A stretch of DNA of 35,872 nucleotides. It comes from Gemmatimonadaceae bacterium (GTDB lineage: Bacteria > Gemmatimonadota > Gemmatimonadetes > Gemmatimonadales > Gemmatimonadaceae). Each line of letters opens with the position of its first letter. Within the stretch, counting starts at the first letter, position 1. Where the stretch lies: assembly GCA_036280115.1 (NCBI GenBank), contig DASURJ010001091.1:1-35872 (forward strand), in the 5' to 3' direction. The translations under genes were made by a program, and so were the position numbers. The notes beneath the pieces were generated by a model, which was not told where the DNA came from, searched no databases, and saw nothing but the letters and a program-made list of their open reading frames with translations. Below are positions 1 through 35,872 of this stretch, in pieces.

Positions 1-141
1 TGGAGGAGGATGCCTCGGGCTGTCCGCGCTCGCTGCGCCCGATTTCGTAGGCGCGCGTCACGGCGCTGAGCTGTTCCATCGGCGACATGCCCGGACGGAG
101 ACTGTGGAGGAGTTCCGAGAGGGCGGGGTTTTCGACGGCGG
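1..141. repeat. Left inverted terminal repeat (141 bp, perfect)
   Basis: Positions 1..141 are the exact reverse complement of 35732..35872. Identity breaks at 142 (g) versus 35731 (a). Confidence 0.95.
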
Positions 142-154
142 GTTGGTCGGTCAC
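1..154 (-). CDS. Outward-reading ORF, 5' portion only (left ITR copy), truncated by the window edge
   Basis: Candidate GTG at 154 with AAGGTG 5 nt upstream. It translates as VTDQPAVENPALSELLHSLRPGMSPMEQLSAVTRAYEIGRSERGQPEASSS... with no stop before position 1. Third-codon positions are mostly G/C. Inside the ITR it is identical to the right-end copy. Confidence 0.35.
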   Translation of the reverse strand, partial: MTDQPAVENPALSELLHSLRPGMSPMEQLSAVTRAYEIGRSERGQPEASSS

Positions 155-172
155 AGATTCACCTTGCCCCAC

Positions 173-190
173 CCTGACATTCGTGTCAGG
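173..190. promoter_or_regulatory. Perfect palindrome CCTGACA-ttcg-TGTCAGG (operator-like)
   Basis: A 7+7 bp inverted repeat with a 4-nt spacer. It lies in the intergenic region between the outward ITR ORF (start 154) and the inward HTH gene (start 270). An extra TGTCA half-site sits at 194..198. Confidence 0.5.
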
Positions 191-269
191 CTCTGTCAAG
201 GCGCGTCGGCGTCGTCCCACCCTCCAACCCATCTGGCTTCCGGCGACCGACGCGCCTGCTTGGATCAAC

Positions 270-473
270 ATGGCAGATTCCCACACGATGCGAGTTCGGG
301 CACAGCGTCTCGTCATGGCGGACGTTGCGCGACTCACCCGCGCCGGCTCGAGCGCGCGCCAGATTGCGGAGGCGCTTGGGTGCTCCGCGAGGACGGTGCA
401 CAGGTTGCGGGCTCTGACACGGATGTCAGGGGTCACCAAGCGCGGCACGCCGAAACTGTCGAGGAAAGCGTGA
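270..473 (+). CDS. Small helix-turn-helix DNA-binding protein (Hin/IS-transposase-type HTH), left terminal paralog
   Basis: In-frame ATG at 270 within track ORF 87..473; ATGs at 288 and 315 are alternative starts. Motif RLTRAGSSARQIAEALGCSARTVHRLRA. It is a paralog of the gene at 35410..35568. Confidence 0.6.
   Translation: MADSHTMRVRAQRLVMADVARLTRAGSSARQIAEALGCSARTVHRLRALTRMSGVTKRGTPKLSRKA
414..429. promoter_or_regulatory. Second copy of palindrome CTGACA-cgga-TGTCAG
   Basis: Same half-sites and same 4-nt spacing as 173..190. It lies inside the 3' end of the HTH gene. Confidence 0.4.
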
Positions 474-501
474 TGGCATGGGGAGTGCAGGGGGAGGGGG
501 G

Positions 502-624
502 ATGAGCAAGTGGCTGAATGTTTACGAGGTCGATGGCGGCGGTTGGGTGCGCGAGGTTTTCGCGCTCGGCGAATGGTACACCGTCGGCGTTTACGGGTCG
601 CGAGCCGCAGCGATGCGTGGCTGA
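502..624 (+). CDS. Hypothetical small protein (40 aa)
   Basis: ATG at 502 directly preceded by GGGGGAGGGGGG (SD-like). Translation MSKWLNVYEVDGGGWVREVFALGEWYTVGVYGSRAAAMRG, stop TGA at 622..624. It is too short to appear in the ORF track. Confidence 0.35.
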   Translation: MSKWLNVYEVDGGGWVREVFALGEWYTVGVYGSRAAAMRG

Positions 625-670
625 CTCAGCTTTCCGGAACGCCGTCCGTTGTGACCGGGAAGGAGAACCG

Positions 671-946
671 ATGAACTGGACATCACCCGCAACCCGCGAA
701 GAGGCAACCGCCCTCGCCCTCGAACACCAGCGCGGACACCTAATCCGCCGCCGGACCGCGACCGGCTACGAGTACGCTCCCGCCGCGGAATTCGAAGACC
801 GGTGGGAGGAGATTCAGCAAGACTTGGCAGCGCTCCGGTCGGTCTGCATCGACTGCACGCTGCCGCACGATCGATGCGACTGTCCCGACGTGGTTCAGGC
901 GCGCGAGGTTGATGAGGCGTATGAGCAACAGGAGGCGATGCGATGA
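671..946 (+). CDS. Hypothetical protein (91 aa), Cys-containing C-terminus
   Basis: Internal ATG of track ORF 518..946, preceded by GGAAGGAGAACCG (AAGGAG SD). The stop overlaps the next start (ATGA at 943..946). Confidence 0.6.
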   Translation: MNWTSPATREEATALALEHQRGHLIRRRTATGYEYAPAAEFEDRWEEIQQDLAALRSVCIDCTLPHDRCDCPDVVQAREVDEAYEQQEAMR

Positions 947-1167
947 GTTCCCATCCCGTAGCCCAAGGCGCCCGGGCGCTGAAACTGGGCGCGACCACGA
1001 ACGAGGCGTTCCGCGCGGCAGGGTACGCACTCACGCCCATCCAAGAGCACTCCGCGGCTCGCTTGGTCGTCCGAAGCGGCCGCATCGTCGGCCGGACGCG
1101 GAACGCTTCGCACGCGAACGACTGGCTGGAACGACTCGCCCGAAAGTTGGGATACCATGCTGACTGA
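943..1167 (+). CDS. Hypothetical protein (74 aa)
   Basis: Track ORF. The start is coupled to the upstream stop. Amino-acid composition looks protein-like. Confidence 0.5.
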   Translation: MSSHPVAQGARALKLGATTNEAFRAAGYALTPIQEHSAARLVVRSGRIVGRTRNASHANDWLERLARKLGYHAD

Positions 1168-1375
1168 ATCCGAGCGCCACATGTACGGCCGCGGACGCTA
1201 CGGCGAAGTCGCGAACCTCGTAGATATCTGCATGGCCGTGTCGAGTCGTCCGTGCGCTGGCGGCTCGTGTAGCGAGGACCACGCGTGCCCGAGGCATTTT
1301 CGCGCGCCGGAAGTCGCGGACAGGCTGGCCAGGATGCGAGCACGCAGACGCGAACGCTTTTCGGAGAAGAAGTGA
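1157..1375 (+). CDS. Hypothetical protein (72 aa), Cys-rich
   Basis: Track ORF. It overlaps its neighbours by a few nt on both sides. Confidence 0.45.
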   Translation: MLTESERHMYGRGRYGEVANLVDICMAVSSRPCAGGSCSEDHACPRHFRAPEVADRLARMRARRRERFSEKK

Positions 1376-1935
1376 TGCGAGACGAGCTTCGGATCATCAA
1401 CGCGCTGTCCGCCCACGTAGACGAGTTCGAGCGAGCCGCAGCGCATTACGAGATGCGCGGCCTGGCAAAGCCTGAGGCTAGGATGCGCAAAGAGGCTGTG
1501 GCAACGCGCGAGCTGCGGGACAGGTTACTGAATGCGCCACGCGAGACTGGAGAAGTGATGCGAGACAAGGACGAAAGGGTTAGGGCCGGAGACTACAAAC
1601 GCCTCGACTGGGAGGTGACTTGCCCGTTTTGCGGCGCCAGTCCTGGGCAGTCGTGCGGGCGAGATCGTGGGCCCGAGGACCCTTCGCACCGGGAGCGCAT
1701 TCACTACATGGCAGACAAATCGCGCGGAGAATCCGACCTCCGCGCCGCGAAAGAGCGGTTGGGGGCGTGGTGGCTGGCGGACTACTCCGAGCGATCGGTA
1801 AATCACATTCAGTTGAGCGGAGGGTCACACGGAATCTACCTTTACACCGATCGTTTGCGTGGAGCCGATTGCTATGAGGTGCGCGAAACCGAAGCCGCCG
1901 CCATCCTTGCGGCGCTGGAAAAGGTGAATGCGTGA
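1375..1935 (+). CDS. Hypothetical protein with CPFCGASPGQSC...H zinc-ribbon-like motif (186 aa)
   Basis: Internal ATG at 1375 of track ORF 1285..1935 overlaps the upstream TGA. Motif CPFCGASPGQSCGR followed by HRERIH. Confidence 0.55.
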   Translation: MRDELRIINALSAHVDEFERAAAHYEMRGLAKPEARMRKEAVATRELRDRLLNAPRETGEVMRDKDERVRAGDYKRLDWEVTCPFCGASPGQSCGRDRGPEDPSHRERIHYMADKSRGESDLRAAKERLGAWWLADYSERSVNHIQLSGGSHGIYLYTDRLRGADCYEVRETEAAAILAALEKVNA

Positions 1936-3446
1936 AAAAGCTCTGCCTCATCGACCTGTCCGGTCTGTTTTGGGCGAACTGGCACGCGACGGAGGCGCAT
2001 CCCGTTGGCGAGGCGTTCTCTCGGACCGTCGAGCAAGTGGCACGCGCAACCGATGGTCACGACCTTGCCGCGGTCTGTTGCGACGCGCCGCCGTACAAGC
2101 GTCGTGAGATTTTGCCCGAGTACAAGGCGCAGCGCGAGAAGCATCCCCCGCAGGCGCTCCAACAGCTCGACGACGTGAAGGCGCGGCTGGCGAGCGACGG
2201 CATGCTCGTCTGGTCCGTCCCGGGCTACGAGGCCGACGACGTGATCGCTACGGCAACACGGCTCGCGCTTGCTGAAGAGCAGCCGATGGATGTCACGATT
2301 TTCTCAGGCGACAAGGACTTGCTTCAGCTCGTCCAGTACGGAGTCCGGTGCGTCTCGCCGCGCTCCGGCGAGTACGACGAGGCGCGTGTTCTTGAGAAGA
2401 TGGGCGTCCCGCCGCGCCTCGTCGGCGACCTACTCGCGCTCATGGGCGACGACTCGGACAACATCCCGGGGCTTCCTGGCGTCGGCCCGAAGACGGCGGC
2501 GGAGTTGCTCAAGCAATTCGGGTCGCTCGAAAGCGTGCTCGCTGGCGCCCTGGAGATCAAGCGAGACAAGCTGCGCGAGACCGTGATTGCCGGAGCCCAG
2601 ACGGCGCGCCTCGCTCGCCGATGCGTCGAGCTGGAAACCGACGTGCCGATAAGCATCGACGACCTGTTCGCTGAGCGCAAAGCTGTGCCCCAAAAACCAC
2701 CGGAGGATTTTTCCAAAATGGACGACGAAGACATCGGGCAGAACGACGCGGCCTGGAGCGCGGCTCCGCCAGCGGACGACGCCGACACGGAGCCGCCGGA
2801 AAGCTCGCCGACAGACCCGGCACCGCCTCCGAAGGGCGAGCCTACTCCGCCCACGCGCTCGCTCGCCAGGGTAGATGCAACGGCGCTCGCGCGCCCCGTG
2901 TCGTTCGAGTTGGGCCTAGAGCCGCAGAGCATCGGCGGGGCGTACACGCTCGCGCGCGGCATGTTCCAGTCGGGTCTCTATTCCAAGTTCAAGAAGGCCG
3001 AAGCGATCTGGGCCGTGATGATTCGCGGTCGTGAGATGGGCATCGGCGCGCTGACGGCACTCGACTGTTTCCACGTCGTCGAGGGCAAGCCGGCGATCCA
3101 TGCGCACCTCGTCGTTGCGCGCGCGAAGGCGCACCCCGATTGCGAGTATTTTCAGCTCGTAGACTCTGGCCCGGACTTCGCGGAGTACGAGACGAAGAAC
3201 AAGCGGAACCCGAAGCCCACGCGGCTCAAGTACACGCTGGCGGAAGCGAAGCTCGCGGGCCTGTGCCCGCAGAATCCGCGCTCGACGCCGGTGCTCAACG
3301 AAAACGGCAAGGACAAGCGCGGCAACTGGGAGAAGCGCCCAAGCGAGATGATCCGTAAAACGTGCGCGACGCAACTGGCGCGCATCGAATACCCGGACGC
3401 GGCCCTCGGTCTCTACGCCGTGGAGGAATTGACCGATGACGACTGA
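1932..3446 (+). CDS. 5'-3' exonuclease (FEN / Pol I N-terminal type) fused to a C-terminal RecT-like single-strand annealing domain
   Basis: GTG start overlaps the upstream TGA (GTGA). The N-terminal ~250 aa carry LIDLSGLFWANWHA, EADDVIATA, FSGDKDLLQLV and the H3TH motif GDDSDNIPGLPGVGPKTAAELL. A Pro/Asp/Glu-rich linker follows. The C-terminal ~190 aa carry MIRGREMGIGALTALDCFHVVEGKPAIHAHL and GNWEKRPSEMIRKTCATQLARIEYPD, which resemble RecT-family conserved blocks. Confidence 0.75.
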   Translation: MKKLCLIDLSGLFWANWHATEAHPVGEAFSRTVEQVARATDGHDLAAVCCDAPPYKRREILPEYKAQREKHPPQALQQLDDVKARLASDGMLVWSVPGYEADDVIATATRLALAEEQPMDVTIFSGDKDLLQLVQYGVRCVSPRSGEYDEARVLEKMGVPPRLVGDLLALMGDDSDNIPGLPGVGPKTAAELLKQFGSLESVLAGALEIKRDKLRETVIAGAQTARLARRCVELETDVPISIDDLFAERKAVPQKPPEDFSKMDDEDIGQNDAAWSAAPPADDADTEPPESSPTDPAPPPKGEPTPPTRSLARVDATALARPVSFELGLEPQSIGGAYTLARGMFQSGLYSKFKKAEAIWAVMIRGREMGIGALTALDCFHVVEGKPAIHAHLVVARAKAHPDCEYFQLVDSGPDFAEYETKNKRNPKPTRLKYTLAEAKLAGLCPQNPRSTPVLNENGKDKRGNWEKRPSEMIRKTCATQLARIEYPDAALGLYAVEELTDDD

Positions 3447-3900
3447 ACTCACGCCCGAGCTCGAGCAGGAGATGCGGGAGGCGGTGGCACGCAAAAGCGC
3501 ACGCTCTAGACTGAGCTCGGCGATTCGCGATTACTCCCTTGCGTGCATGGCGCTGCGCGACAACCCCATGGGTACCAGGGGCGTCTCGGCGCGCCTCGAG
3601 AAGGCATCCGCTGCCGTGGAGCAGGACATCGGCGCGTATGTCATTGCCTGCGGCGGCAACACGGACGGACCCGCCGCGCTCACCCCCGAGCGCGTCTCTG
3701 CGTACCTGGCCGGGCTCGACGACGTTGCGTTTCTCGAGGTCTTGGCGGCGGGCGGAGAGCGTACCTCGGTCGCCTGCAAGCGGGTAACCGAACAGCTACG
3801 AGAGAGTGAGGCCGAACTCGACCGCCTCCGGGCGGAGAATGCGGAGCTGGCGCGCGACAAGGATCTGCTCATCCGCCAGCTGGAGAACAGGACGCCATGA
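3436..3900 (+). CDS. Hypothetical coiled-coil protein (154 aa)
   Basis: Track ORF that overlaps the upstream stop. The C-terminus is heptad-like (LDRLRAENAELARDKDLLIRQLE). Confidence 0.55.
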   Translation: MTTELTPELEQEMREAVARKSARSRLSSAIRDYSLACMALRDNPMGTRGVSARLEKASAAVEQDIGAYVIACGGNTDGPAALTPERVSAYLAGLDDVAFLEVLAAGGERTSVACKRVTEQLRESEAELDRLRAENAELARDKDLLIRQLENRTP

Positions 3901-4271
3901 CCGCCCGCCTAACCGACGCTGAGGTTGGCTCGATCATCGAGTGGGCGGAGCGCTTCCTCAGTACGCCGCACGTCCTTTCGAACGCAGAAACCGAACGCTA
4001 CCACCTCGCCCTCGAAGTCCGCGAACTGCGGGCGCGCGTTGTGGAGCTTGAAAGCGAGACCGCGAACATGCGCAAGGTCTGGGTCGAGAACCAGTCGCAC
4101 CGGGCGAGCCTGGAATCTGAACTCGTCACGGCACAGAGGCGCGTTGTGGAGCTGGAGGGGGTGAATGCATCGCTGAAGGCGCGCGGCAATCAGGCGTACG
4201 AAGCGGGACTTCGCGACGGCAAGGTCGAAGAGGCGGCGCGCGAACTCGAGAGGAAGCGTTATGGCTGCTGA
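3897..4271 (+). CDS. Hypothetical coiled-coil protein (124 aa)
   Basis: Track ORF with an ATGA overlap to the upstream gene. Confidence 0.55.
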   Translation: MTARLTDAEVGSIIEWAERFLSTPHVLSNAETERYHLALEVRELRARVVELESETANMRKVWVENQSHRASLESELVTAQRRVVELEGVNASLKARGNQAYEAGLRDGKVEEAARELERKRYGC

Positions 4272-4449
4272 ACCGCCCCAGCCGTCTCCCGAGGACTTCG
4301 AGAGGGCGACCGTCTACGCGCGCCGTTACTTGGCGAAGCATGATCGCGGTCCGCTCAAAGGCGAGGTCGAGACGTGGCGCTCGGATCGCGCGGTTCGTTG
4401 GGTTACGGCCGACGCGGCGCGGAGTGAGCAGGAGGAGAAGGCGAAATGA
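4261..4449 (+). CDS. Hypothetical protein (62 aa)
   Basis: Track ORF, coupled to its neighbours. Confidence 0.45.
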   Translation: MAAEPPQPSPEDFERATVYARRYLAKHDRGPLKGEVETWRSDRAVRWVTADAARSEQEEKAK

Positions 4450-4760
4450 CCGACGAGAAGCTCAGGGAGGCGATTGCGCGCCTGTCCCACTACCTGGACG
4501 CTGAGCCGATCCCAATCGAAGACTCGCACCTCGTCCTCTCCGCCGCCTCGTCCTGGCTCAAGCTCGTGCCCGTCCGCGGCAACGAGGTCACGGAGGCGGG
4601 ATTGTACATCCTGCCATCCGAGGAGCTGTACCGGTTCAACGGGAAGCGGTGGCTTCGGCCGGACGGCGAAGGCGACATGGAGTATTGCGAGGCTCCGGAG
4701 TGGGCCATCCCGTGGGGCGCCCTCCCCGCCATTCCAAAGGAGACGACCGATGACCCCTGA
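4446..4760 (+). CDS. Hypothetical protein (104 aa)
   Basis: Track ORF with an ATGA overlap to the upstream gene. Confidence 0.5.
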   Translation: MTDEKLREAIARLSHYLDAEPIPIEDSHLVLSAASSWLKLVPVRGNEVTEAGLYILPSEELYRFNGKRWLRPDGEGDMEYCEAPEWAIPWGALPAIPKETTDDP

Positions 4761-5085
4761 ACCCTTCGGCCCCCGCCTGCGCCGGTTTCGGCTGAAGAGC
4801 GGCATGACGGAAGCGCAGCTCGGCGAGGCCGCATTCCCGGGCATGACCAACTCCGATGCGATGATCCGCAACATCGAGGACGGGACGCCCATTCCTCTAT
4901 CCTGGCTCGTCACCATCGCCGCCGCGCTGGACATCTCCACCGACGAGCTGCTGGGCGTAGAGAGTCCGGTGGTGCGGAGGCTGAGGGAGGCGTTGGATGC
5001 CGGTGGCGCCGGACCGCTCGACAACATCGACGCGAGCGCGGTTGGCTTCCTCCGGTCGCTCCTGCCTGAAAGCGAGCGCGGGTGA
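4750..5085 (+). CDS. XRE-family (Cro/CI-type) helix-turn-helix transcriptional regulator
   Basis: Internal ATG at 4750 of track ORF 4474..5085. The sequence FGPRLRRFRLKSGMTEAQLGEAA...IRNIEDGTPIPLSWLVTIAAALDISTDELLG matches the HTH_3 pattern. Confidence 0.75.
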   Translation: MTPEPFGPRLRRFRLKSGMTEAQLGEAAFPGMTNSDAMIRNIEDGTPIPLSWLVTIAAALDISTDELLGVESPVVRRLREALDAGGAGPLDNIDASAVGFLRSLLPESERG

Positions 5086-5360
5086 CGATGACTCGATGCG
5101 AATACGACGGGCACGAGCACGACGCCGAGAAGGAGTGCCCGTCCTGCCAACTGTACAGCGCGGCGGTCGCGGCGCAGGGTGCTGCCGCACAATCGCTCGC
5201 TGTTGCTCGCGGGGCCGACCCCGGCGCGCGAACCTGGCTCAATGAGTACGGAATCTTCGGACAGGTCGATGGCTCCTACGTCGAAGTCGGAACGCGGGAA
5301 GAGGCGGCGCCGTTTGTTGCGCTCACCGCCAATCCCCGCCGAAAGCGCCACCGCCGATGA
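5082..5360 (+). CDS. Hypothetical protein (92 aa) with a CPSC motif
   Basis: Track ORF with an ATGA overlap to the upstream gene. Confidence 0.5.
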   Translation: MTMTRCEYDGHEHDAEKECPSCQLYSAAVAAQGAAAQSLAVARGADPGARTWLNEYGIFGQVDGSYVEVGTREEAAPFVALTANPRRKRHRR

Positions 5361-5408
5361 GCTACCGAGCTGGCGTAGGCGCATCGATAGCGCTGGAGGA
5401 CACCCCCG

Positions 5409-5972
5409 ATGCCTAACTGCGACCGCTGCGGGCGGGAGAGGGCGGAGAGTCTGCTGGCGTGGAACCGCGAATCCTACTCTCGCGTCATGGCGGAAGACGA
5501 CCATGACAGATTGGCGGTCGGGCGAACATGTGCGCGCGACATGCCGAACCGTGGCGGATTCTACCCGGACAACGCGACATGGGACTGCGACCGCGCCACC
5601 GTCGCCCGACTCAAAATACTCGTCGCGGAAAAGGACGAGTGCATAACGCTGTATGCCGAGGAGAACGAGGAACTGAAGTCCACCATCGCCAAGCAGCAGG
5701 CCAGGATTGCGGAGTTGGAGACTGGCGTCGTCGCGAAAGTCCTCGCGCTCGGAGCGAAGATTGTCGAGCTCGAACGGGAGAACGCGGAGCTGAGGGCGGA
5801 TGTGGACGCGCTGGGAATCTGCCAGAAGTGCGACGGCTCCGGTGTTTACGAGCCAAGGTCGGCGCACTGGGACCGTGAGAACCAGCAGATCGTCATTCCG
5901 CAAAAGGGAACGTGCCAGGCCTGCTCCGGCACCGGCCGCGTCGAGAGGGCGCGGAGGTGGAGACCTACGTAG
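5409..5972 (+). CDS. Hypothetical coiled-coil protein with a C-terminal DnaJ-type CxxCxGxG zinc-finger pair
   Basis: GGAGGA lies 8 nt upstream of the ATG. The N-terminus has CDRCG, the middle is coiled coil, and the C-terminus has CQKCDGSG...CQACSGTG. It ends in TAG at 5970..5972. Confidence 0.6.
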   Translation: MPNCDRCGRERAESLLAWNRESYSRVMAEDDHDRLAVGRTCARDMPNRGGFYPDNATWDCDRATVARLKILVAEKDECITLYAEENEELKSTIAKQQARIAELETGVVAKVLALGAKIVELERENAELRADVDALGICQKCDGSGVYEPRSAHWDRENQQIVIPQKGTCQACSGTGRVERARRWRPT

Positions 5973-6300: not shown

Positions 6301-6884
6301 TTCCACCTTCCAATCGTCTCCATCGCCGCGTGGGCTTGGGCGAATAGGTTCGCGTTCGCTCGGTTCCTCGGCACGACGCCAGGGTTCCCGGTCGAGCGTA
6401 TCAGGCACTCGCGCCCGGCCTCGTCCCAAGCCTGAAGGTCCACCGCGCGTGAAAACTTCGGAAACTTGCGCCAGAATCCCGAGCCCATCGCCCACGCCAT
6501 CGACAGGATCCCCATCTGCGCGCTCGCCGGGAACTTGTCCCAGTTCCCCCAGCGCTCGATTATGTCACGCTCGTTTTCGGCGAGCTGCCGAAAGACCGCG
6601 TTGTCGATTGCGGCGTCTTGCAGACGGAGCGCTGTGATGGTCTCCGCCTCGCGCGCCGGAAGACGGCCGCTCTTCACGAGCTGCCACTCTTTGGCGATGT
6701 CCTCGCGCAGGGCGACCACGCCGTCCTGGTAGGTCCACCCGAACTTCGCGGCGGCTTCCGGCGAGTCGATCAGGTTCCCAACGCCCGTCGTAACCTTGCC
6801 CAGGATGTCGCAGTACATCCATTGAATCCGACCCTCGAGCGGGTGATTCAGGTCGAGCCAGAGGCGGCGGACTTCGGGTCTCAT
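6297..6884 (-). CDS. Endolysin, GH24 (T4/P22-type) lysozyme
   Basis: Internal ATG at 6884 of track ORF 6297..7196 overlaps the upstream stop. The sequence LEGRIQWMYCDILGKVTTGVG gives the E-x8-D-x5-T catalytic spacing seen in P22 lysozyme (EGERLKAYSDSRGIPTIGVG). The C-terminal block GVVPRNRANANLF fits the family. Confidence 0.85.
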   Translation of the reverse strand: MRPEVRRLWLDLNHPLEGRIQWMYCDILGKVTTGVGNLIDSPEAAAKFGWTYQDGVVALREDIAKEWQLVKSGRLPAREAETITALRLQDAAIDNAVFRQLAENERDIIERWGNWDKFPASAQMGILSMAWAMGSGFWRKFPKFSRAVDLQAWDEAGRECLIRSTGNPGVVPRNRANANLFAQAHAAMETIGRWK

Positions 6885-7099
6885 CGGCAGTAAAGCGCCC
6901 GCTCTCCTGAGCGAAGCGACCTCGGAACACGCGCACGGATCTTCGCCTCGTGACAGGCAGCGACGTACTCCTCGCGGAAGCCCGGGATGGCAGCGACCTC
7001 CGGACACACGCAGTCCCTCCATGTCTCGTACGAGTAGATGCAGCCAGCCGCGTGGACGAGGTGCTTGCGTAGACGACGGGCCTTTTCGCGGATGGTCAC
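6881..7099 (-). CDS. Hypothetical Cys-rich small protein (72 aa)
   Basis: Track ORF with GTGA coupling at both ends. Confidence 0.45.
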   Translation of the reverse strand: MTIREKARRLRKHLVHAAGCIYSYETWRDCVCPEVAAIPGFREEYVAACHEAKIRARVPRSLRSGERALYCR

Positions 7100-7356
7100 G
7101 ACGGCCTGTCCTCCCGCTGTTCCGGGGTCCAGAATGGCTCAGCCGCGTTACCTCGGATGGGGGCTTCCAGCGGCGGCAACGGCGGCGGCGCAACACGCAG
7201 CGCTGCGCTCAGGCGGGCCCTCCACGCCTCGGCCAGCATCATCGTCGCGTCTCGCCCGAACCAGGCCCAGAGCGCCCAGCCAACGGCAGCCACGGCGAAC
7301 ACAAGACCAAGGCCGACGCCCGCGGCAAGGGTGGCAGGGAGAGCCCACTCGTTCAC
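7096..7356 (-). CDS. Small membrane protein, holin candidate
   Basis: GTG start overlaps the upstream TGA. A hydrophobic stretch LPATLAAGVGLGLVFAVAAVGWALWAWF is followed by a charged tail. It lies upstream of the lysozyme. Confidence 0.45.
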   Translation of the reverse strand: MNEWALPATLAAGVGLGLVFAVAAVGWALWAWFGRDATMMLAEAWRARLSAALRVAPPPLPPLEAPIRGNAAEPFWTPEQREDRPS

Positions 7357-8024
7357 GACGGACGCCCCATCCTGGCGATACCGATCAGCAACTCGGCGAA
7401 CCGCGGAGGCGTCGCGGAGGATTCGCGCTTCCCGAGCGTCGGGAGATTTGCGGCCGGCCCGCGCTGGTCGTGGAATCCGATCTGATGCGTCCCCTTCGGG
7501 CGGCGCCAGTCCAGATCCGGGGGCTCAGGAACAACGCAGTAGAGCCATGTCGCCTTGGCGGCGCGATGCCCGTAGGCGCTCTGCCAGACCTCGCAGACCC
7601 AGCCGACGCCTGAACGCGACCAGCCACATGCCGTGGGGCGCGCTAGCCCGTGACGGGCCCAGGCTCGCGACGCCTTCGGGTGCTCCAGGACGCCGCCCCA
7701 TGTGTTCACGGCGTCGAGCGCGGCACGGAAACAACCGCCGTCGTTTCCTGGTCGGTTGTGCTCACCGCCCCAGCGTTTGAAGTTCACCGCCGCGAAGGCG
7801 CCCCAGAGCTGACAAGGCGGGTGAGCGACCACTGGCAGTGCGCCCGGATAGAGCCTCGCGTCCCGCGCCTCATCCCAGCACAGATCCGCCCCGAGCAGCC
7901 GCGGGTACGGTCCTCGCGGGTCAACAAACAGCGCAGCCACATCGCTCACGACAACACCACCGGCACGCCCACCGGTCGGCGCGGGAAAGCGTCGTGCAGC
8001 CAGGACACTAGGATCAGCATGCAC
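7353..8024 (-). CDS. Protein with cytosine-C5 methyltransferase-like motifs (PPCQ / LEHP), compact and without an obvious target-recognition domain
   Basis: Motifs are PVVAHPPCQLWG (like motif IV PCQ), GVLEHPKAS (like motif VI ENV) and ATPPRFAELLI near the C-terminus. No clear FxGxG SAM loop is seen. The start is uncertain: GTG at 8024 has no SD, and internal GTGs are possible. Confidence 0.35.
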   Translation of the reverse strand: MHADPSVLAARRFPAPTGGRAGGVVVSDVAALFVDPRGPYPRLLGADLCWDEARDARLYPGALPVVAHPPCQLWGAFAAVNFKRWGGEHNRPGNDGGCFRAALDAVNTWGGVLEHPKASRAWARHGLARPTACGWSRSGVGWVCEVWQSAYGHRAAKATWLYCVVPEPPDLDWRRPKGTHQIGFHDQRGPAANLPTLGKRESSATPPRFAELLIGIARMGRPS

Positions 8025-8058
8025 CAGAGGGCGAGCGCGACGGAGATTGCGGCGGCCC

Positions 8059-8298
8059 TCATACCTTCGGCCCCCACGGGATCTCTTGGACTACAGGGTG
8101 CAACCGCATCGGGACAGCGCCCACGAGTCGGATCTGCCCATGCCTGTCGAGCCGCTCCCGCGCCATCTCGTAGGCGGCTTCGGCGGCGTCGTACTCGGCT
8201 TGCTGAGCGCTCGCGTCGCCCGATTCGCGCGCGTCTTCCAGCCTGGAAAATGCCGCCTGCGCCAGCTCATCGGCCGCACGCACGACAGTGGCCAGCAT
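8059..8298 (-). CDS. Hypothetical helical protein (79 aa)
   Basis: Internal ATG at 8298 of track ORF 8059..8469. The longer N-terminal extension is Arg/Gly/Pro-rich and looks like a shadow frame. Confidence 0.4.
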   Translation of the reverse strand: MLATVVRAADELAQAAFSRLEDARESGDASAQQAEYDAAEAAYEMARERLDRHGQIRLVGAVPMRLHPVVQEIPWGPKV

Positions 8299-27929: not shown

Positions 27930-28171
27930 GCTTGGCCTTTCTCTTCGGGCGGTCCCAACCGGACCACGAGTTCCTTGCACAGGCGCATGGCACGATCGAG
28001 CGTCCAGGCGGCATCCAGCATGGCACCGCGGGTAGCGCGCTCGAGTAGCAGGCTGTCCCTGCCCATCTCGTATGCGTTGCGCATGGCTTCTTCGGGGGTG
28101 GTTTCGTTTTCGCGGACCTGGCGGGCCAGATCCATCAGATTGGAGTCGTCTTGGTTCATGTGTGTTTTCAT
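27926..28171 (-). CDS. Hypothetical small protein (81 aa)
   Basis: Track ORF with ATGA overlaps to both portal and scaffold genes. Confidence 0.45.
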   Translation of the reverse strand: MKTHMNQDDSNLMDLARQVRENETTPEEAMRNAYEMGRDSLLLERATRGAMLDAAWTLDRAMRLCKELVVRLGPPEEKGQA

Positions 28172-30117
28172 TGGAGCATCGGGGGCGCGCCGTTCATGGG
28201 CGGCGTCGCCGCGTTGGGGGGGGCCATCGGGTCACCGGCGGCGACGGGCGGAGGAGGCGGAGGTACTTGCGCCTCGCCCTGCTTGGCGATCTTGTTGCAC
28301 GCCTCGAACCACTTGATCACGTTGTCCACGGTCTCGGGGGATGCGCCGTCCACCTCGAGCCGGTTGATGCGATCGACCGCGAGTTGTTTCGCGAGCGCGG
28401 CGTCGGGATAGATCATGTAGGTCGTCGGCATCGTCTCGTCGGTGAGGCCCTCGCGCGCGCACCGGTCCAGGGACTTCTGGATGTTCTTCTCGCGCGCGTT
28501 CGTGTCGCCGAGCACCGCGCCCACGTCGGGGAACTCTTCGAACATGGCCGTCGCGGCGCGCACCGCTAGATCCGGATTCACCTGGCGCAGGCGTTCGAGT
28601 CGGCTGATCTTCATGCCGGGAGACTGCGGGAGCAAGTTCGCGGGCGAGGCCACGACCATGAACGTCTTCCGCTCGAGTTCGACGTCTTTCCAGCGGATAC
28701 GCTGCATAGATTTCGCGTCGCCCCAGAACGTCTCGAACTGCGGGTCTTTCTTTGCCATCCAGCGGCACGCCTCGATCACGTTCTGACCGCATTCTACCCA
28801 GCAGTCTTCCCACGCTTGGTTGCCCTCGAAATGACGCTGCTGCGTGACCTCGGTCAGGTGTTCCATGCCTGGAGCGTGGTCCACGCCGACGGGTCGCTCG
28901 CCACTCAGCATCATGTTGTTGACGCCGGCCTGCTCCTTCATCCACTCGACGATTCGCTGTCGCTCGTTGAACAACTCGGACGGGATCGGCTGCGGTTGCA
29001 GGTACATCGCGGCTCCGCCGGGCGGACCGTTCGTCTCGATGAACGCGGCCAGGTTCGTCGTAAAGTGATTCCGGTTGACCTTGCCCTTTTGCATGAGCAG
29101 GCGCGGAATGGCATGGAAGTACAGCGCTGCGTCCACACGCTCTTCCCACCGGTCTAGCTTGAGCTGCCCTCCCGCGAGTAGCTCCGGGATGCCACACGAC
29201 CAGTAGTCGGTCGGGTTCCGAAGCGGGAAAAAGCCGGAGAGCATGAACCGCTCGAGCGGCCACGGCTCGGAGAGGAGGAGTTTGTTGCTGATTGAAAGCG
29301 TGCGCAGGCCGTCGTGCCCCGGGTCTGGCTTGCGCTTTCCTTTGCCCTTGCCGAGGCCCCACGCCGCGTCGTCGTCGAGGTCCACGTATCCGCTCGGCAG
29401 ATGGATGCTCTCGATCACGAGCACGCGATCGGTTCCGGTCGGGCGCCGCACGTCGCCGACCATCTCGGCGGGCGCGCTGTCGGCCTCAAGAATCTCGTCC
29501 TTGAAATCCGGGAAGTCGGCGATCAACTGGTAGCGGTCCACGGCCATGAGTTCGTGTCCCTGTCTCGGGTCCACGCCGTCGCCGTCTGGGACGAGCCAAT
29601 GCCACGGATAGACCGAGCGCAGGCTCACGCGATTCCGCTCGTAGTCGGGGACAACGCGCACGAAACCGCCGTCGAAGATGAAGCCGTGCTTCGCGACGCG
29701 CCGCCCAAGGTGCGAGTAAGCGCCGTTCGCGCGGAACACGCCCTCAACCGCGCGCATCATGCCTTGCGCCTGCTCGCGTTCGTTCACGCTGCCGGCCTCA
29801 GTGAGGAAGAACGGGCGGATCTTGTTCTGGACGGTGTACGCGACGCGCGTATCCACGCATTCGCGGATGACGTTCTGACCAGGCTGCCCGCCGCTCGCGT
29901 CGATGTCGAGCATCCGTAGCACGTCGCTCGGGTCGGCAGCCTTGCCTTGCGTCAGGTGCCGCGAGTTGCCGAAGTACGCGGTCAGCGCAGCGTCGCCAAT
30001 CTCACGCGCCTCGTCGCCCTGCTCGTTCTTGAGCGAGGTCGCGACGTTCCAAACCGTGTCGTGGATGTCCCGCTCTTCCTCGCGATCCCACCACGCTTCA
30101 TTCGCTAGATCCGCCAT
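28168..30117 (-). CDS. Portal protein
   Basis: A 649-aa ORF between terminase and scaffold. ATG at 30117 is preceded by GAGGAAGGG. The assignment rests on size and synteny. Confidence 0.7.
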   Translation of the reverse strand: MADLANEAWWDREEERDIHDTVWNVATSLKNEQGDEAREIGDAALTAYFGNSRHLTQGKAADPSDVLRMLDIDASGGQPGQNVIRECVDTRVAYTVQNKIRPFFLTEAGSVNEREQAQGMMRAVEGVFRANGAYSHLGRRVAKHGFIFDGGFVRVVPDYERNRVSLRSVYPWHWLVPDGDGVDPRQGHELMAVDRYQLIADFPDFKDEILEADSAPAEMVGDVRRPTGTDRVLVIESIHLPSGYVDLDDDAAWGLGKGKGKRKPDPGHDGLRTLSISNKLLLSEPWPLERFMLSGFFPLRNPTDYWSCGIPELLAGGQLKLDRWEERVDAALYFHAIPRLLMQKGKVNRNHFTTNLAAFIETNGPPGGAAMYLQPQPIPSELFNERQRIVEWMKEQAGVNNMMLSGERPVGVDHAPGMEHLTEVTQQRHFEGNQAWEDCWVECGQNVIEACRWMAKKDPQFETFWGDAKSMQRIRWKDVELERKTFMVVASPANLLPQSPGMKISRLERLRQVNPDLAVRAATAMFEEFPDVGAVLGDTNAREKNIQKSLDRCAREGLTDETMPTTYMIYPDAALAKQLAVDRINRLEVDGASPETVDNVIKWFEACNKIAKQGEAQVPPPPPPVAAGDPMAPPNAATPPMNGAPPMLQ

Positions 30118-30343
30118 TTGCCGCCCTTCCTCGGTTTGCAAGCTTCAGGTGCGCCGCGCGTACGCCGTCCGGCCGCGTCTTCTGCCGCTCGTCCTCGACC
30201 TCGCCAGCCACGTCGAGCGGGCCGAGAATCGCGCTCTTGAGCGCGCCGGACTCGTACAGCTCGCACGACACGACTCCGCCTTCGCGCAGTACGCGCAGGG
30301 TTTCAGCCAAGTCGGGCGAGGGCGTTTCGGTAGGATCCATCAT
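30098..30343 (-). CDS. Hypothetical small protein between terminase and portal (about 70-81 aa)
   Basis: Track ORF filling the 185-nt terminase-portal gap, with good GC3 bias. The start is uncertain: ATG at 30343/30340 or TTG at 30310. Confidence 0.4.
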   Translation of the reverse strand: MMDPTETPSPDLAETLRVLREGGVVSCELYESGALKSAILGPLDVAGEVEDERQKTRPDGVRAAHLKLANRGRAANGGSSE

Positions 30344-31790
30344 CGTTTCCTTGTTCGACGCGCCGCCAGAACTCTTGGACGGGCGTTAGTTCGGGATCGG
30401 GAGTCTTGGGCACGGCCGGCGCGTTCTTGAGCGCGAGCATGTAGGCCGGGATGTAGTCGCAGTGGCGGCCGTCCTTGGTCTTCGGGAGCGAGAGAGACGC
30501 GTTCCCGTTCGAGCTGATCCTCTTCGACATGTTCTGAAAGTCGCTCCGGACCTGCGGGTCTTTCGGCAGCGAGAGCAGGCCGCCACGAAGGAGAGCAACG
30601 ACTTGCTCGGCCAGCGGCAGGCGGTTAGCGCCGGTCAAGTCCTCGCGCACGCACACGACGCCGAACTCTGCCGCGATGTCGATCAGGGCCTCGGCCATGT
30701 TCTGGTCGGTCATGACGTACGGGACGCCGTACGGCTTGAGCAGGCCGGCCATCTCGGCAATGACTGCCTTTGGGCTGAGCGGAGCGCCAGCGCGTGGCTT
30801 CCATTCGCGGTGGAGCACGGTCTCGTAACCGCCCTCGGGATTGCCGCCCATGACGACCAGCGTCCAGGCGTTCGAGCGTGTCGCCGGGTCCATGCCGGCG
30901 GAGTAGGACCAGTGCGGATCGGGCGGCACAGGCTCCGCGTCCTCGCGCTCCGCTGCCTCGATTTCACCGCGCGATAGCAGGGCGAATTCGGGGTCCGAGA
31001 ACACACACATCACGTTCTTGTTGAACGCGTCGGCATTCGTGCGCTCGAGCTCGGCGCAGTTCTCCGGCGAGTATGTCACCGGGTTCATGAGCGGCCCCTC
31101 GGCCTTGCACACCAGGAAATCCGCGTTCGGCTTGCCCCAGTTCTGCTGGAACAGCTCGAACGCTGGGCCGATGGCGCCCTCGGCCGAGCCGATCAGCATC
31201 TCGAGCCCGCCAGGCAGAACGCGCCCGTGGATTGCGTCGCGCGCGCCCTCGAGATTCTTCACGTAGTCCACGCTGGACCCCATGAGGAAAATCTCTTCGA
31301 AGATGATCCCGGGCAACCAGCGACCAACGAGCGTGCGGCCGTACGCGGCGAGGGCCACGACCTTGATTTCCACCGGGCGCCCGCTCTCGTGCTCAATGGT
31401 CACGGAGTCGGCCGTCTGCTTGAGGATCAGCGGGCGCAGGATGTCCGAGTTCTCCAGGATGCCGATGACGTGGGCGAGCGTGGCCTTGCTCGTGTCAATC
31501 TCGGGAGAGACGATCGGGACGCGCAGGGAGTCGCTCGGCTTGACCGGTGCTCCGACGTAGCAGGTGCGCGCGATCTTGATGGCGCAGGCGCTCATCATCA
31601 TCGACTTGGCTGAGCGGATGCCGGCAACGACCATGAGCGAGCGCAGCATCGAACCGAAGTCCGGCAGCTCTTCGCCGTACGCCCGAACGACGTGTGGGTG
31701 CGCGCCGAGCCCGTCGAGCGGGGCACGGTCGAGGAGGCGGCAGTTCGCGATCTGGACGGGCGTCGGTGGCGTGCCCTGGCCCTCGTTCAT
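30303..31790 (-). CDS. terL: Terminase large subunit
   Basis: Deviant Walker A VAGIRSAKS and Walker B-like LPGIIFEE. RNaseH-like nuclease acidic blocks AGMDPATRSNAWTLVVMG, YVMTDQN and RHCDYIPA. The start is taken at ATG 31790; ATG 31901 is an alternative. Confidence 0.8.
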   Translation of the reverse strand: MNEGQGTPPTPVQIANCRLLDRAPLDGLGAHPHVVRAYGEELPDFGSMLRSLMVVAGIRSAKSMMMSACAIKIARTCYVGAPVKPSDSLRVPIVSPEIDTSKATLAHVIGILENSDILRPLILKQTADSVTIEHESGRPVEIKVVALAAYGRTLVGRWLPGIIFEEIFLMGSSVDYVKNLEGARDAIHGRVLPGGLEMLIGSAEGAIGPAFELFQQNWGKPNADFLVCKAEGPLMNPVTYSPENCAELERTNADAFNKNVMCVFSDPEFALLSRGEIEAAEREDAEPVPPDPHWSYSAGMDPATRSNAWTLVVMGGNPEGGYETVLHREWKPRAGAPLSPKAVIAEMAGLLKPYGVPYVMTDQNMAEALIDIAAEFGVVCVREDLTGANRLPLAEQVVALLRGGLLSLPKDPQVRSDFQNMSKRISSNGNASLSLPKTKDGRHCDYIPAYMLALKNAPAVPKTPDPELTPVQEFWRRVEQGNDDGSYRNALARLG

Positions 31791-31857
31791 GCCGCAGCCC
31801 CAATCCGACGTGAAGATCGACTCCACGGTCAGACGGGGAAGTCCGTTCGCGCGGAGT

Positions 31858-32358
31858 TCAGGTTCGGCCGACAATCGGGATCCGCCTGTCGCGCGCCGCA
31901 ATCGCCTCGCGGCAAATCGCGCCCACGATGAGCTGGAACTTCGCGCGGTCGGTCCGCTCGGCGAGCTTGTTCGCGTTCTCGTAGCTCAGCTCGATCGCGT
32001 ACGTGAGCGAGAACCGATCGACGAACGCGACCGCAAAGCCCGTGTGCGTGAACCTGGATTCCGTGGCACCCAGCCCCGCGCTCCGGAGTTCGTTGTTGCA
32101 GGACTCGACGAGCGCTCGGAGGAACTCGTGCTTGGCGCGCTCCGTCGCGTCGATCTCCGCCATCGTCGGAGGAGCGGGTTCGTCGTGCGTCCGGGATTGG
32201 TTCCGGTCGCCGTACAGCTCATCCATCAAGTCGTCGAGGTGCGCCGTTGGATCCGAGCGCTGGTCGCGACGGATGTCCCGAACGATGTCCGCCTCCTCGG
32301 CCGCGTCGATCTGCGGCTCGAGGTTCTCCCCCTCCTCGATGAGGATTCGCTCGGTCAC
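31858..32358 (-). CDS. Hypothetical protein with an acidic N-terminus; small terminase subunit candidate by position only
   Basis: GTG start overlaps the upstream TGA. It lies immediately upstream of terL. Confidence 0.35.
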   Translation of the reverse strand: MTERILIEEGENLEPQIDAAEEADIVRDIRRDQRSDPTAHLDDLMDELYGDRNQSRTHDEPAPPTMAEIDATERAKHEFLRALVESCNNELRSAGLGATESRFTHTGFAVAFVDRFSLTYAIELSYENANKLAERTDRAKFQLIVGAICREAIAARDRRIPIVGRT

Positions 32359-32579: not shown

Positions 32580-32616
32580 TCGGCCAGGGTGCTACCCGGC
32601 CGGCGGTCCCGTCAAA

Positions 32617-34590: not shown

Positions 34591-34592
34591 AA

Positions 34593-35351: not shown

Positions 35352-35380
35352 CGTCGAATCTCCAATCAGGTTCGGCCATG

Positions 35381-35407: not shown

Positions 35408-35409
35408 TT

Positions 35410-35568
35410 TCACTTCTTGCGAACGGTCTTCCCGCTCCGGACTTTAGCCCTCGCGCGCCAGCGACTGACGGTCCGCACGGTACAGCGCAGGCTGACCGCG
35501 ATTTCGTCCAGCGTGTACCCGTCGCGAGTCATCTTCGCCACGCGCTCCAGCATCGTCCGTTCGTTCAT
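35410..35568 (-). CDS. Small helix-turn-helix DNA-binding protein (52 aa), right terminal paralog
   Basis: Hand translation: MNERTMLERVAKMTRDGYTLDEIAVSLRCTVRTVSRWRARAKVRSGKTVRKK. It shares 13 of 26 identical residues with the left HTH core by manual alignment. It is below the track size cutoff. Confidence 0.55.
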   Translation of the reverse strand: MNERTMLERVAKMTRDGYTLDEIAVSLRCTVRTVSRWRARAKVRSGKTVRKK

Positions 35569-35589
35569 CCTTGACCAAGGCTCCCACAA

Positions 35590-35601
35590 CTGTCATGACA
35601 G
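35590..35601. promoter_or_regulatory. Perfect 12-bp palindrome CTGTCA-TGACAG (operator-like)
   Basis: It has the same TGTCA/TGACA half-sites as the left-end palindromes, but abutting and in the opposite relative order. It lies in the 45-nt gap between the divergent right HTH gene (35568) and the outward ORF (35614). Confidence 0.45.
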
Positions 35602-35613
35602 CGCAAGGACCAA

Positions 35614-35872
35614 ATGGACCCAGAGGACATCGAACACAACGACCACATGGCGTACATTGAGGAGGCTCGGGCCGAGAACGCAGCGTATGAGCTGAGACAG
35701 GCCTGTGGAGGCCAAACGGACCCCCAAATGACCGCCGTCGAAAACCCCGCCCTCTCGGAACTCCTCCACAGTCTCCGTCCGGGCATGTCGCCGATGGAAC
35801 AGCTCAGCGCCGTGACGCGCGCCTACGAAATCGGGCGCAGCGAGCGCGGACAGCCCGAGGCATCCTCCTCCA
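35614..35872 (+). CDS. Outward-reading ORF, 5' portion only (right copy), truncated by the window edge
   Basis: ATG at 35614 with AAGGA 4 nt upstream; ATG at 35728 is an alternative. There are 86 codons with no stop up to the last base: MDPEDIEHNDHMAYIEEARAENAAYELRQACGGQTDPQMTAVENPALSELLHSLRPGMSPMEQLSAVTRAYEIGRSERGQPEASSS. GC3 is high. Confidence 0.4.
   Translation, partial: MDPEDIEHNDHMAYIEEARAENAAYELRQACGGQTDPQMTAVENPALSELLHSLRPGMSPMEQLSAVTRAYEIGRSERGQPEASSS
35732..35872. repeat. Right inverted terminal repeat (141 bp, perfect)
   Basis: Exact reverse complement of 1..141. Confidence 0.95.

What the first reader, a model, noticed from the sequence alone, without database searches (positions are those of the whole stretch)
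1..141. Perfect 141-bp inverted terminal repeats on a tailed-phage genome with no recognisable end-replication machinery
The first 141 nt are the exact reverse complement of the last 141 nt (35732..35872). Tailed phages usually end in direct repeats, cos sites or permuted pac ends. ITRs are the hallmark of protein-primed linear replicons (phi29, PRD1-type, adenovirus, Streptomyces linear plasmids), of hairpin-telomere elements and of transposons. Yet I see no family-B polymerase, terminal protein, protelomerase or transposase here. There is a caveat. 141 is also the default largest k-mer of the MEGAHIT assembler, so an exactly 141-bp ITR could be a graph overlap. In that case both contig ends attach, in opposite orientations, to one collapsed node, which would be a longer inverted repeat or an invertible segment. 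Either outcome is biologically interesting; a pure chimeric artefact is the null hypothesis.
Basis: partly seen in the sequence, partly recalled or inferred. Interest (0 to 1): 0.7.

Follow-up and report, generated by a model that had tools for sequence, protein, structure and literature searches.

The report
Assembler-length inverted repeat on incomplete phage contig
The perfect 141-base inverted repeat at the two ends of this phage contig is real sequence, but its length is set by the assembler (MEGAHIT's largest k-mer), so it marks where a longer inverted repeat was cut off and not the physical ends of a genome.

Summary
Bases 1-141 are the exact reverse complement of 35732-35872, and identity falls to random at base 142.

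The headline reading, ITR genome termini with no end-replication machinery, is not supported.
- The repeat is exactly 141 nt, MEGAHIT's usual largest k.
- It is coding. It holds the first 47 codons of an outward-reading gene ("X"). X starts just outside the repeat at each end (GTG 154, minus strand; ATG 35728, plus strand) and runs off both contig ends with no stop.
- A separate k=31 assembly of run SRR25158508 matches window 30773-35761 perfectly. It stops exactly 30 nt (k-1) into the repeat, as expected at a graph branch on the repeat boundary.
- The large terminase model has both an ATPase and a nuclease domain, so DNA is cut from concatemers. This is unlike phi29-type protein-capped genomes.
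- No family-B polymerase, protelomerase, transposase or integrase is present.

Most likely the contig is the 35.6-kb single-copy stretch between two inverted copies of a longer repeat. The rest of X and whatever lies beyond it are missing. Whether the map is circular (large segment, repeat, small segment, repeat) or linear with long ITRs could not be settled. Interest is low.

The parts
1..141 (.). Left arm of the perfect inverted repeat. It is the visible 141-nt stub, and the repeat is inferred to continue beyond base 1.
   Evidence: 100% reverse complement of 35732-35872.
35732..35872 (.). Right arm of the perfect inverted repeat. It is inferred to continue beyond base 35872.
   Evidence: The Logan k=31 contig L001 ends at 35761, 30 nt into this arm.
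1..154 (-). Left copy of gene X, 5' fragment. GTG start at 154-152 is preceded by AAGGTGA. It reads VTDQP-AVENPALSELLHSLRPGMSPMEQLSAVTRAYEIGRSERGQPEASSS... and runs off the contig with no stop.
   Evidence: Sequence read directly. Frame translation. Codon-usage score +13.2 bits over 46 codons, reached by only 1.0% of wrong-frame windows.
35728..35872 (+). Right copy of gene X, 5' fragment. ATG start at 35728. It reads MT-AVENPALSE... with the same 47 codons and runs off the contig with no stop.
   Evidence: (GC1/2/3 = 0.69/0.45/0.78). The Logan gene caller also called an open-ended outward gene here.
155..269 (.). Left divergent intergenic region between X and the left HTH gene. It holds the operator-like palindrome CCTGACA-N4-TGTCAGG at 173-190.
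270..473 (+). Left inward HTH regulator (HTH_23, phrog_664). It is the first gene of the plus-strand early arm. The start may be ATG 288, judged from its paralogue. A second palindrome, CTGACA-N4-TGTCAG, lies at 414-429.
35410..35568 (-). Right inward HTH regulator. It is a paralogue of the left one (43% identity over 37 aa, E = 4e-9; same PHROG family). It is the first gene of the minus-strand late arm.
35569..35727 (.). Right divergent intergenic region with the palindrome CTGTCATGACAG at 35590-35601.
30303..31874 (-). Large terminase with an ATPase domain and an RNase H-like nuclease domain. It implies that DNA is cut from concatemers.
   Evidence: PHROG matches. AlphaFold model with pLDDT 90.6. 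Foldseek hits to the HK97, D6E, Sf6 and T4 terminases, and to the G20c nuclease domain with TM 0.80.
28168..30141 (-). Portal protein, P22-like.
1932..3446 (+). Fusion of a 5'-3' exonuclease and a RecT annealase. This phage recombinase could recombine inverted repeat copies.

Best explanation
The 141 nt are real DNA, but their length and their 'terminal' position come from the assembler. The contig is the 35.6-kb single-copy stretch of a tailed, terminase-packaged phage (probably temperate, possibly infecting Myxococcota). This stretch lies between two inverted copies of a repeat longer than 141 bp.

In a de Bruijn graph the two copies collapse into one node. The unitig for the unique stretch therefore stops after one k-mer (141 nt) of the repeat at each end.

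The repeat begins a few bases after the start codon of an outward-reading ORFan gene, X. X is therefore present, at least in its 5' part, in two inverted copies. Each copy sits back-to-back with a paralogous HTH regulator that heads one arm of the genome: the early arm 270-5972 (+) and the late arm 35568-5965 (-). The rest of X and whatever lies beyond it are missing from the window.

The layout I think most likely (inferred, not shown) is a circular or permuted map: large unique segment, repeat, short segment, repeat. The two X copies would converge on the short segment. That segment may carry functions absent from the window, such as an integrase or a replication initiator. Homologous recombination between the copies, for example by the phage's Exo-RecT, could flip it.

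It is not a protein-primed, hairpin-ended or transposon-type ITR replicon.
For: Shown:
- The identity is exactly 141 nt, then random. 141 is the k-max used with MEGAHIT in 71 papers, and it is the default by my own knowledge. A spurious 141-bp terminal duplicate from MEGAHIT is documented in PMC11572364. Any true repeat of 141 nt or more would appear as exactly 141, so a true length of exactly 141 is a priori very unlikely.
- The repeat is coding in the outward direction. The frame stays open through all 47 codons and is in frame with a start codon just outside the repeat at each end. GC1/2/3 are typical of genes here. The codon score is +13.2 bits, exceeded by 1.0% of wrong-frame windows and within the range of true genes. 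A gene without a stop at both ends means the contig is truncated at both ends.
- Logan contig L001 (run SRR25158508, k=31, a different assembler) equals window 30773-35761 with 0 mismatches and ends exactly 30 = k-1 nt into the repeat. Logan keeps every 31-mer only once and discards singleton k-mers. This is therefore the signature of a node with two incoming flanks at the repeat boundary. The other three Logan contig ends seen do not lie at repeats within the window, so a chance break at this exact base is about 1 in 5000.
- The terminase has a nuclease domain.
- No PolB, protelomerase, transposase or integrase is in the window.
- The ITR does not fold better than shuffled sequence (z = +1.0).
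- The HTH genes next to X at each end are paralogues, and similar palindromes occur only near the two ends. The inverted duplication is therefore older and wider than 141 nt.

Context:
- In CheckV's survey only 33.2% of ITR contigs were more than 90% complete, against 90% of DTR contigs (PMC8116208).
- A distant relative with the same structural module is 40 kb long and carries an integrase and a DnaA_C-type replication protein that the window lacks.
Against: - The continuation of the repeat was never seen. The ITR DNA and the X peptide have no match in IMG/VR, JGI metagenome contigs, GTDB genomes or the 5.8-billion-protein set.
- The left junction (141|142) could not be checked in the independent assembly, because the Logan contig there could not be retrieved.
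- Coverage and read pairs are not available.
- X has no homologue, so its status as a gene rests on codon statistics and start-codon context only.
- Close relatives (terminase 76-82% identical) diverge before this region and give no information on it.
- The circular layout with a short segment is inference. A linear genome with long ITRs gives the same assembly graph.
Confidence: 0.72

Rival explanations
1. The replicon is linear with long gene-bearing inverted terminal repeats (longer than 141 bp). Each ITR carries a copy of X reading towards the physical end. The contig is the whole unique part, and only the outer parts of the ITRs are missing. The ends would be maintained by an unknown mechanism.
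For: It gives exactly the same assembly graph and the same k-1 break in Logan. The genome is strikingly two-armed: both arms are transcribed inward from the ends, and each is headed by a paralogous HTH regulator. No integrase is present in the window.
Against: No PolB, protelomerase or other end-replication gene is present (same calls). The terminase carries a nuclease domain, as in phages that cut concatemers. More distant relatives with the same structural module carry integrases, so they are circular, integrating phages. No tailed phage of this kind is known (my own knowledge).
Confidence: 0.1
2. The contig is a misassembly or population chimera, and no single genome carries both junctions. 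One flank-repeat junction would come from a co-occurring related strain or a rearranged subpopulation that shares at least 141 identical bases of X. The assembler would have threaded the two into one path.
For: Relatives of this phage are mosaic exactly in this region. Similarity of about 80% nt ends upstream of the glycosyltransferase gene, and several Logan contigs stop there. The left junction was not confirmed independently. The Logan assembly of the run breaks into pieces of about 5 kb, which suggests modest coverage or strain variation.
Against: The 35.9-kb contig is one unbranched path at k=141. The two Logan contigs that could be retrieved (window 468-5410 and 30773-35761, about 28% of the contig) match it at 100%, so nothing in those two stretches hints at a second strain. 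The Logan break at exactly k-1 nt into the repeat needs a second flank in the same run with at least 2 reads per k-mer. The paralogous HTH genes argue for an old inverted duplication within one genome.
Confidence: 0.14
3. The 141-bp ITRs are the true physical ends of a complete 35,872-bp linear genome replicated from its ends.
For: A real ITR of exactly 141 bp would also be assembled as seen.
Against: It requires a coincidence with the assembler's k. An apparently real gene would be cut off by both genome ends. There is no PolB, terminal-protein candidate or protelomerase. The terminase has a nuclease domain. The ITR has no special fold.
Confidence: 0.03

Closest known systems
De Bruijn-graph contig bounded by a collapsed inverted repeat, as with the chloroplast layout (large single-copy, IR, small single-copy, IR) and the k-length terminal overlaps of MEGAHIT contigs
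   Same: The terminal repeat has exactly the length of k-max (141). Identity is perfect with an abrupt edge. Genes are cut at the contig ends. An independent assembly at a different k breaks k-1 nt into the repeat.
   Different: The neighbouring graph nodes, the coverage and the small segment were not seen, so the full layout is inferred.
Phage invertible segments flanked by inverted repeats (P1 C segment with about 0.6-kb repeats, Mu G segment; from my own knowledge)
   Same: Two inverted copies of the 5' part of a gene read from both sides into a segment between them.
   Different: No Cin/Gin-type invertase is in the window. The repeat lies in the regulatory region between the early and late arms, not in tail-fibre genes. 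In P1 and Mu the start of the gene lies outside the segment on one side only, whereas here each copy has its own start codon and its own divergent promoter region.
Protein-primed ITR phages (phi29/Salasmaviridae, PRD1/Tectiviridae)
   Same: Inverted identity at the two ends of a linear sequence record, and inward transcription from both ends.
   Different: No family-B polymerase is present. The terminase has a nuclease domain. The repeat is coding and runs off the record.
N15-type linear plasmid-prophages with hairpin telomeres
   Same: A tailed temperate-type phage whose replicon could be linear despite a cutting terminase.
   Different: No protelomerase is present. The terminal sequence is not palindromic and does not fold (z = +1.0).

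Membership tests
Assembly-graph stub of a longer inverted repeat (MEGAHIT k=141) | The repeat length equals the assembler's largest k. | tested here: met
   Exactly 141 nt. k-max 141 is used with MEGAHIT in 71 papers.
Assembly-graph stub of a longer inverted repeat (MEGAHIT k=141) | Sequence features are cut off by the contig ends. | tested here: met
   Gene X is open through all 47 codons at both ends with a coding-type codon score.
Assembly-graph stub of a longer inverted repeat (MEGAHIT k=141) | An independent assembly branches at the inner edge of the repeat. | tested here: met
   Logan k=31 contig L001 ends 30 nt into the repeat. Logan's rules are given. Only the right end could be tested.
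Assembly-graph stub of a longer inverted repeat (MEGAHIT k=141) | About two-fold read coverage on the repeat, and a neighbouring node in the graph. | not testable with these tools
   No reads or graph are available. The extension was not found in any collection.
Protein-primed ITR replicons (phi29, PRD1, adenovirus type) | Family-B protein-primed DNA polymerase. | tested here: not met
   No polymerase of any kind in about 60 ORFs scanned with Pfam and PHROGs.
Protein-primed ITR replicons (phi29, PRD1, adenovirus type) | Terminal protein. | tested here: inconclusive
   No match was found, but terminal proteins are poorly conserved and most ORFs here have no annotation.
Protein-primed ITR replicons (phi29, PRD1, adenovirus type) | Unit-length DNA is packaged by an ATPase that lacks a nuclease domain (phi29 type). 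| tested here: not met
   The terminase model has an ATPase and an RNase H-like nuclease domain (G20c nuclease TM 0.80).
Protein-primed ITR replicons (phi29, PRD1, adenovirus type) | The ITRs are the physical ends of virion DNA. | not testable with these tools
   This needs reads or virion DNA. The truncated gene argues against it.
Hairpin-telomere linear phage-plasmids (N15 type) | Protelomerase gene. | tested here: not met
   No match in Pfam or PHROGs.
Hairpin-telomere linear phage-plasmids (N15 type) | Palindromic telomere site at the ends. | tested here: not met
   The ITR does not fold better than shuffles (z = +1.0; 170 of 200 shuffles fold at least as well).
Transposons and transposable phages (Mu type) | Transposase, and short terminal inverted repeats next to variable host DNA. 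| tested here: not met
   No transposase was found (same scans). The repeat is a perfect 141 nt and coding.
Site-specific invertible segments (Mu G, P1 C, shufflons) | An invertase or recombinase gene next to the segment. | tested here: not met
   No serine or tyrosine recombinase is in the window. It could lie in the missing part.
Site-specific invertible segments (Mu G, P1 C, shufflons) | Both orientations of the segment are present in the population. | not testable with these tools
   This needs reads across the repeat.

The most novel reading that the evidence does not exclude
The phage is a linear replicon whose physical ends are long (more than 141 bp) inverted repeats. Each repeat carries a copy of the ORFan gene X. 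The ends are maintained without a family-B polymerase, terminal protein or protelomerase, which would be a new way of handling ends in a tailed phage. A milder variant is a recombination-driven flip-flop segment between the early and late arms that acts as a regulatory switch.
Probability: 0.08. Interest if true: 0.8.

Novelty: not a real feature. Interest (0 to 1): 0.18.

Why it matters
The value here is mainly as a caution. Pipelines such as CheckV label contigs with terminal inverted repeats of 20 bp or more as complete genomes. This contig would pass that test while lacking part of the genome, including the rest of gene X. It may also lack the integrase and replication genes that relatives carry.

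An ITR whose length equals the assembler's k, and which cuts a gene, should be read as a repeat boundary. The underlying biology is only mildly interesting and needs the reads to be described. It is an inverted duplication of the X 5' end and a paralogous regulator at the heads of the two transcription arms of a very divergent phage, possibly of Myxococcota.

Tried and rejected
1. Searching for the continuation of the repeat.
- An exact 40-mer and a codon-degenerate 50-mer of the ITR gave no match in IMG/VR or JGI metagenome contigs.
- The X peptide gave no match in the 5.8-billion-protein set.
- Back-translated words of X gave no match in GTDB genomes, JGI metagenomes or IMG/VR.

2. Retrieving the Logan contig over the left junction. 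I guessed the called product of the left HTH gene (starts at 270, 288, and a partial product from 114) and of ORF 518-946. None is on record, so the left junction remains unverified.

3. Using relatives to see what lies between the arms.
- Exo-RecT relatives (L003-L005, L024, L025) share only that gene and one or two tail genes. They have integrase and cI/cro-type modules upstream.
- Close terminase relatives (L026-L029; 76-82% aa identity, about 80% nt identity over the late arm) lose similarity at window position ~33.7 kb. Their contigs stop before the region of interest.
- A 40-kb JGI relative (L030) has a different, co-directional early region.

4. GenBank phages. There is no useful match by DNA or by terminase protein. 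The terminase has no sequence match in the PDB.

5. X against Pfam at E <= 1: nothing.

6. Promoter and terminator scans of both ends: nothing. No tRNA genes.

7. Considered and rejected.
- IS elements flanking the contig: the identity starts inside a coding frame, with no transposase and no IS-type ends.
- A hairpin read-through artefact: the ends are not palindromic.
- MDA fold-back chimeras: these would occur at random positions and low abundance, yet Logan keeps only k-mers seen at least twice.

Full report
**Observation.** The first 141 bases of the window are the exact reverse complement of the last 141 (35732-35872). The match is perfect and ends abruptly. From base 142 inward, ungapped identity is 11-21 per 60 bases, which is random for 66% GC. 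A gapped alignment of the two 480-nt ends finds no further DNA homology. The next-best inverted pair in the window is 33 nt at 79%.

**What the window is.** I called genes with a codon model trained on the window's long ORFs. Two arms converge at about 5.97 kb.
- The plus-strand arm runs 270-5972. It holds an HTH regulator, a zinc-finger DNA-binding protein, a 5'-3' exonuclease fused to a RecT annealase at 1932-3446, and a repressor-like HTH.
- The minus-strand arm runs from 35568 down to 5965. It holds an HTH regulator, a GT2-TPR glycosyltransferase, a large terminase at 30303-31874, a P22-like portal at 28168-30141, an SU10-like adaptor, a virion protein, and four large tail-region proteins of 587-1009 aa.

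It is therefore a tailed phage, and a very divergent one. There is no useful match among GenBank phages.

About 60 ORFs were scanned against Pfam and PHROGs. None is a DNA polymerase, protelomerase, transposase, integrase or recognisable replication initiator.

**The repeat is coding and the gene is cut off.** Read outward, one frame of the 141 nt is open throughout (AVENPALSELLHSLRPGMSPMEQLSAVTRAYEIGRSERGQPEASSS). At both ends it is in frame with a start codon lying just outside the repeat.
- At the right end the start is ATG at 35728.
- At the left end, on the minus strand, it is GTG at 154, preceded by AAGGTGA.

The stretch has the GC1/GC2/GC3 pattern of real genes here, 0.69/0.45/0.78. With the codon model, the outward frame scores +13.2 bits over 46 codons. 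The other five frames score -1 to -38. Only 1.0% of wrong-frame 138-nt windows from the window's genes reach 13.2, and 23% of true in-frame windows score lower.

This gene (X) has no stop before either contig end. A sequence record that cuts the same gene at both ends is not a complete genome.

**The length is the assembler's.** 141 is the largest k-mer normally used by MEGAHIT. It is the default list by my own knowledge, and 71 papers state k-max 141. One paper documents a spurious 141-bp terminal duplicate on a MEGAHIT contig (PMC11572364).

In a de Bruijn graph the two copies of an inverted repeat collapse into one node. The unitig for the unique stretch between them carries exactly one k-mer of the repeat at each end. 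Any true repeat of 141 nt or more would therefore appear as exactly 141. A true length of exactly 141 is one value among very many.

**Independent assembly.** The small HTH protein at the right end is also encoded on a Logan contig of run SRR25158508 (L001). L001 equals window 30773-35761 with no mismatch and stops exactly 30 nt into the repeat.

Logan contigs are built at k=31. K-mers seen once are discarded, and every 31-mer is kept only once per accession (PMC12424806). A contig that ends with k-1 bases of the repeat is what is expected when the first 31-mer wholly inside the repeat has two incoming flanks.

The other three Logan contig ends I could see (window 468, 5410, 30773) do not lie at repeats within the window. 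Breaks come about every 5 kb, so a chance break at this exact base is about 1 in 5000.

A second flank joined to the repeat at this base thus exists in the reads of that run. This makes a MEGAHIT-only chimera unlikely. I could not retrieve the Logan contig over the left junction, so that side is unverified.

**Against end-replicating ITR replicons.**
- No family-B polymerase or protelomerase is present.
- The terminase argues against unit-length protein-capped DNA. A model built from 43 homologues (pLDDT 90.6) matches whole large terminases: HK97 (E = 3e-18), D6E, Sf6 and T4. It also matches isolated nuclease domains (G20c, TM 0.80, rmsd 2.9 A; P74-26; SPP1) and isolated ATPase domains. A nuclease-bearing terminase cuts genomes out of concatemers, whereas phi29-type packaging ATPases have no nuclease domain (my own knowledge).
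- The 141 nt do not fold better than shuffled sequence (z = +1.0), so they are not hairpin-telomere or parvovirus-like ends.
- More distant relatives that share the structural module (L030, terminase 38% identical, 40-kb contig) or the Exo-RecT gene (L003, L024) carry integrases. They are ordinary integrating phages.

**The inverted duplication is wider and older than 141 nt.** Back-to-back with each X start lies a small inward HTH gene. The two proteins are paralogues (43% identity over 37 aa, E = 4e-9) and both match phrog_664.

Operator-like palindromes with CTGACA/TGTCAG half-sites occur at 173-190, 414-429 and 35590-35601, all within 450 nt of an end. Each arm of the genome thus begins with the same kind of module: X outward, a divergent control region, and an HTH gene inward. 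Only the X part is identical. This favours a real two-copy arrangement in one genome over a join between strains.

**What could not be found.** The continuation of the repeat is in none of the collections I could search. X is an ORFan.

Close relatives exist only as Logan contigs: L026 (33.6 kb), L027, L028 and L029, with terminase 76-82% identical. They share the late arm at about 80% nt identity. They lose similarity at window position ~33.7 kb and stop soon after, so they say nothing about the repeat.

The topology stays open. The same graph arises from two layouts:
- a circular or permuted genome of the form large segment, repeat, small segment, repeat, which I favour given the cutting terminase and the integrating relatives;
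- a linear genome with long terminal repeats.

**Verdict.** The sequence identity is real. As 'inverted terminal repeats of a genome' it is an assembly product: the k-mer-long stub of a longer inverted repeat on an incomplete contig.

CheckV's own survey found that only 33.2% of ITR contigs were more than 90% complete, against 90% of DTR contigs (PMC8116208). That fits this case.

My confidences:
- 0.72 that the repeat is longer than 141 nt and the contig is incomplete.
- 0.10 for a linear replicon with long ITRs.
- 0.14 for a chimera or a strain join.
- 0.03 for true 141-bp termini.

Interest is low. The reads of SRR25158508 would settle the matter in an afternoon.

Noticed in passing
window 1932-3446 (+): One 504-aa protein fuses a 5'-3' (FEN-type) exonuclease (residues 4-243) to a RecT-like annealase (about 331-502). 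This fusion is very common in uncultured phages: 5058 proteins with E <= 1e-20 (among the 8000 candidates that the search scored), many on contigs of 34-42 kb.
   Followed up: partly
window 270-473 (+) and 35410-35568 (-); palindromes at 173-190, 414-429 and 35590-35601: Each transcription arm is headed by a paralogous small HTH_23 / phrog_664 regulator (43% identity). Operator-like palindromes with CTGACA/TGTCAG half-sites are found only near the two contig ends. The missing junction is probably the phage's regulatory switch region.
   Followed up: partly
window 30303-31874 (-); protein P0135: Among the listed terminase relatives, the only one for which a source gives an organism name is a Byssovorax sp. 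MAG protein (39% identity). With 66% GC, this hints at a Myxococcota host. Close relatives (76-82%) occur only in Logan assemblies of four other SRA runs.
   Followed up: no
L026 1-661 and L027 1-661, against window 33700-34300: Logan contigs of a close relative from two different runs (SRR29085005, SRR28886893) start at the same base, about 560 nt upstream of the glycosyltransferase gene. This is where similarity to the window ends. It is a mosaic boundary or another repeat in this lineage.
   Followed up: partly
window 32617-33717 (-): A GT2 glycosyltransferase with TPR repeats sits at the head of the late operon, upstream of the terminase genes. It is much more variable among relatives (56-75% aa) than the portal and terminase genes downstream of it (76-87%).
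   Followed up: no
window 17543-17756, inside the 870-aa gene 16081-18693 (-): Three diverged copies (72-73% identity) of a unit of about 64 nt, spaced 96 and 54 nt apart, lie inside a large tail-region protein. The protein therefore has an internal repeat.
   Followed up: no
window 21765-22310 (+): Two small plus-strand genes (110 and 70 aa, no family match) are embedded in the minus-strand late arm between tail genes, like a moron. Relatives L026 and L029 also have two small opposite-strand genes at this spot.
   Followed up: no
window 6884-8059: My codon model called no gene in this 1.2-kb gap, yet ORF 7353-8024 (-) matches phrog_12600 (unknown function) at E = 2e-59. Gene content here is underestimated by simple coding statistics.
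   Followed up: partly
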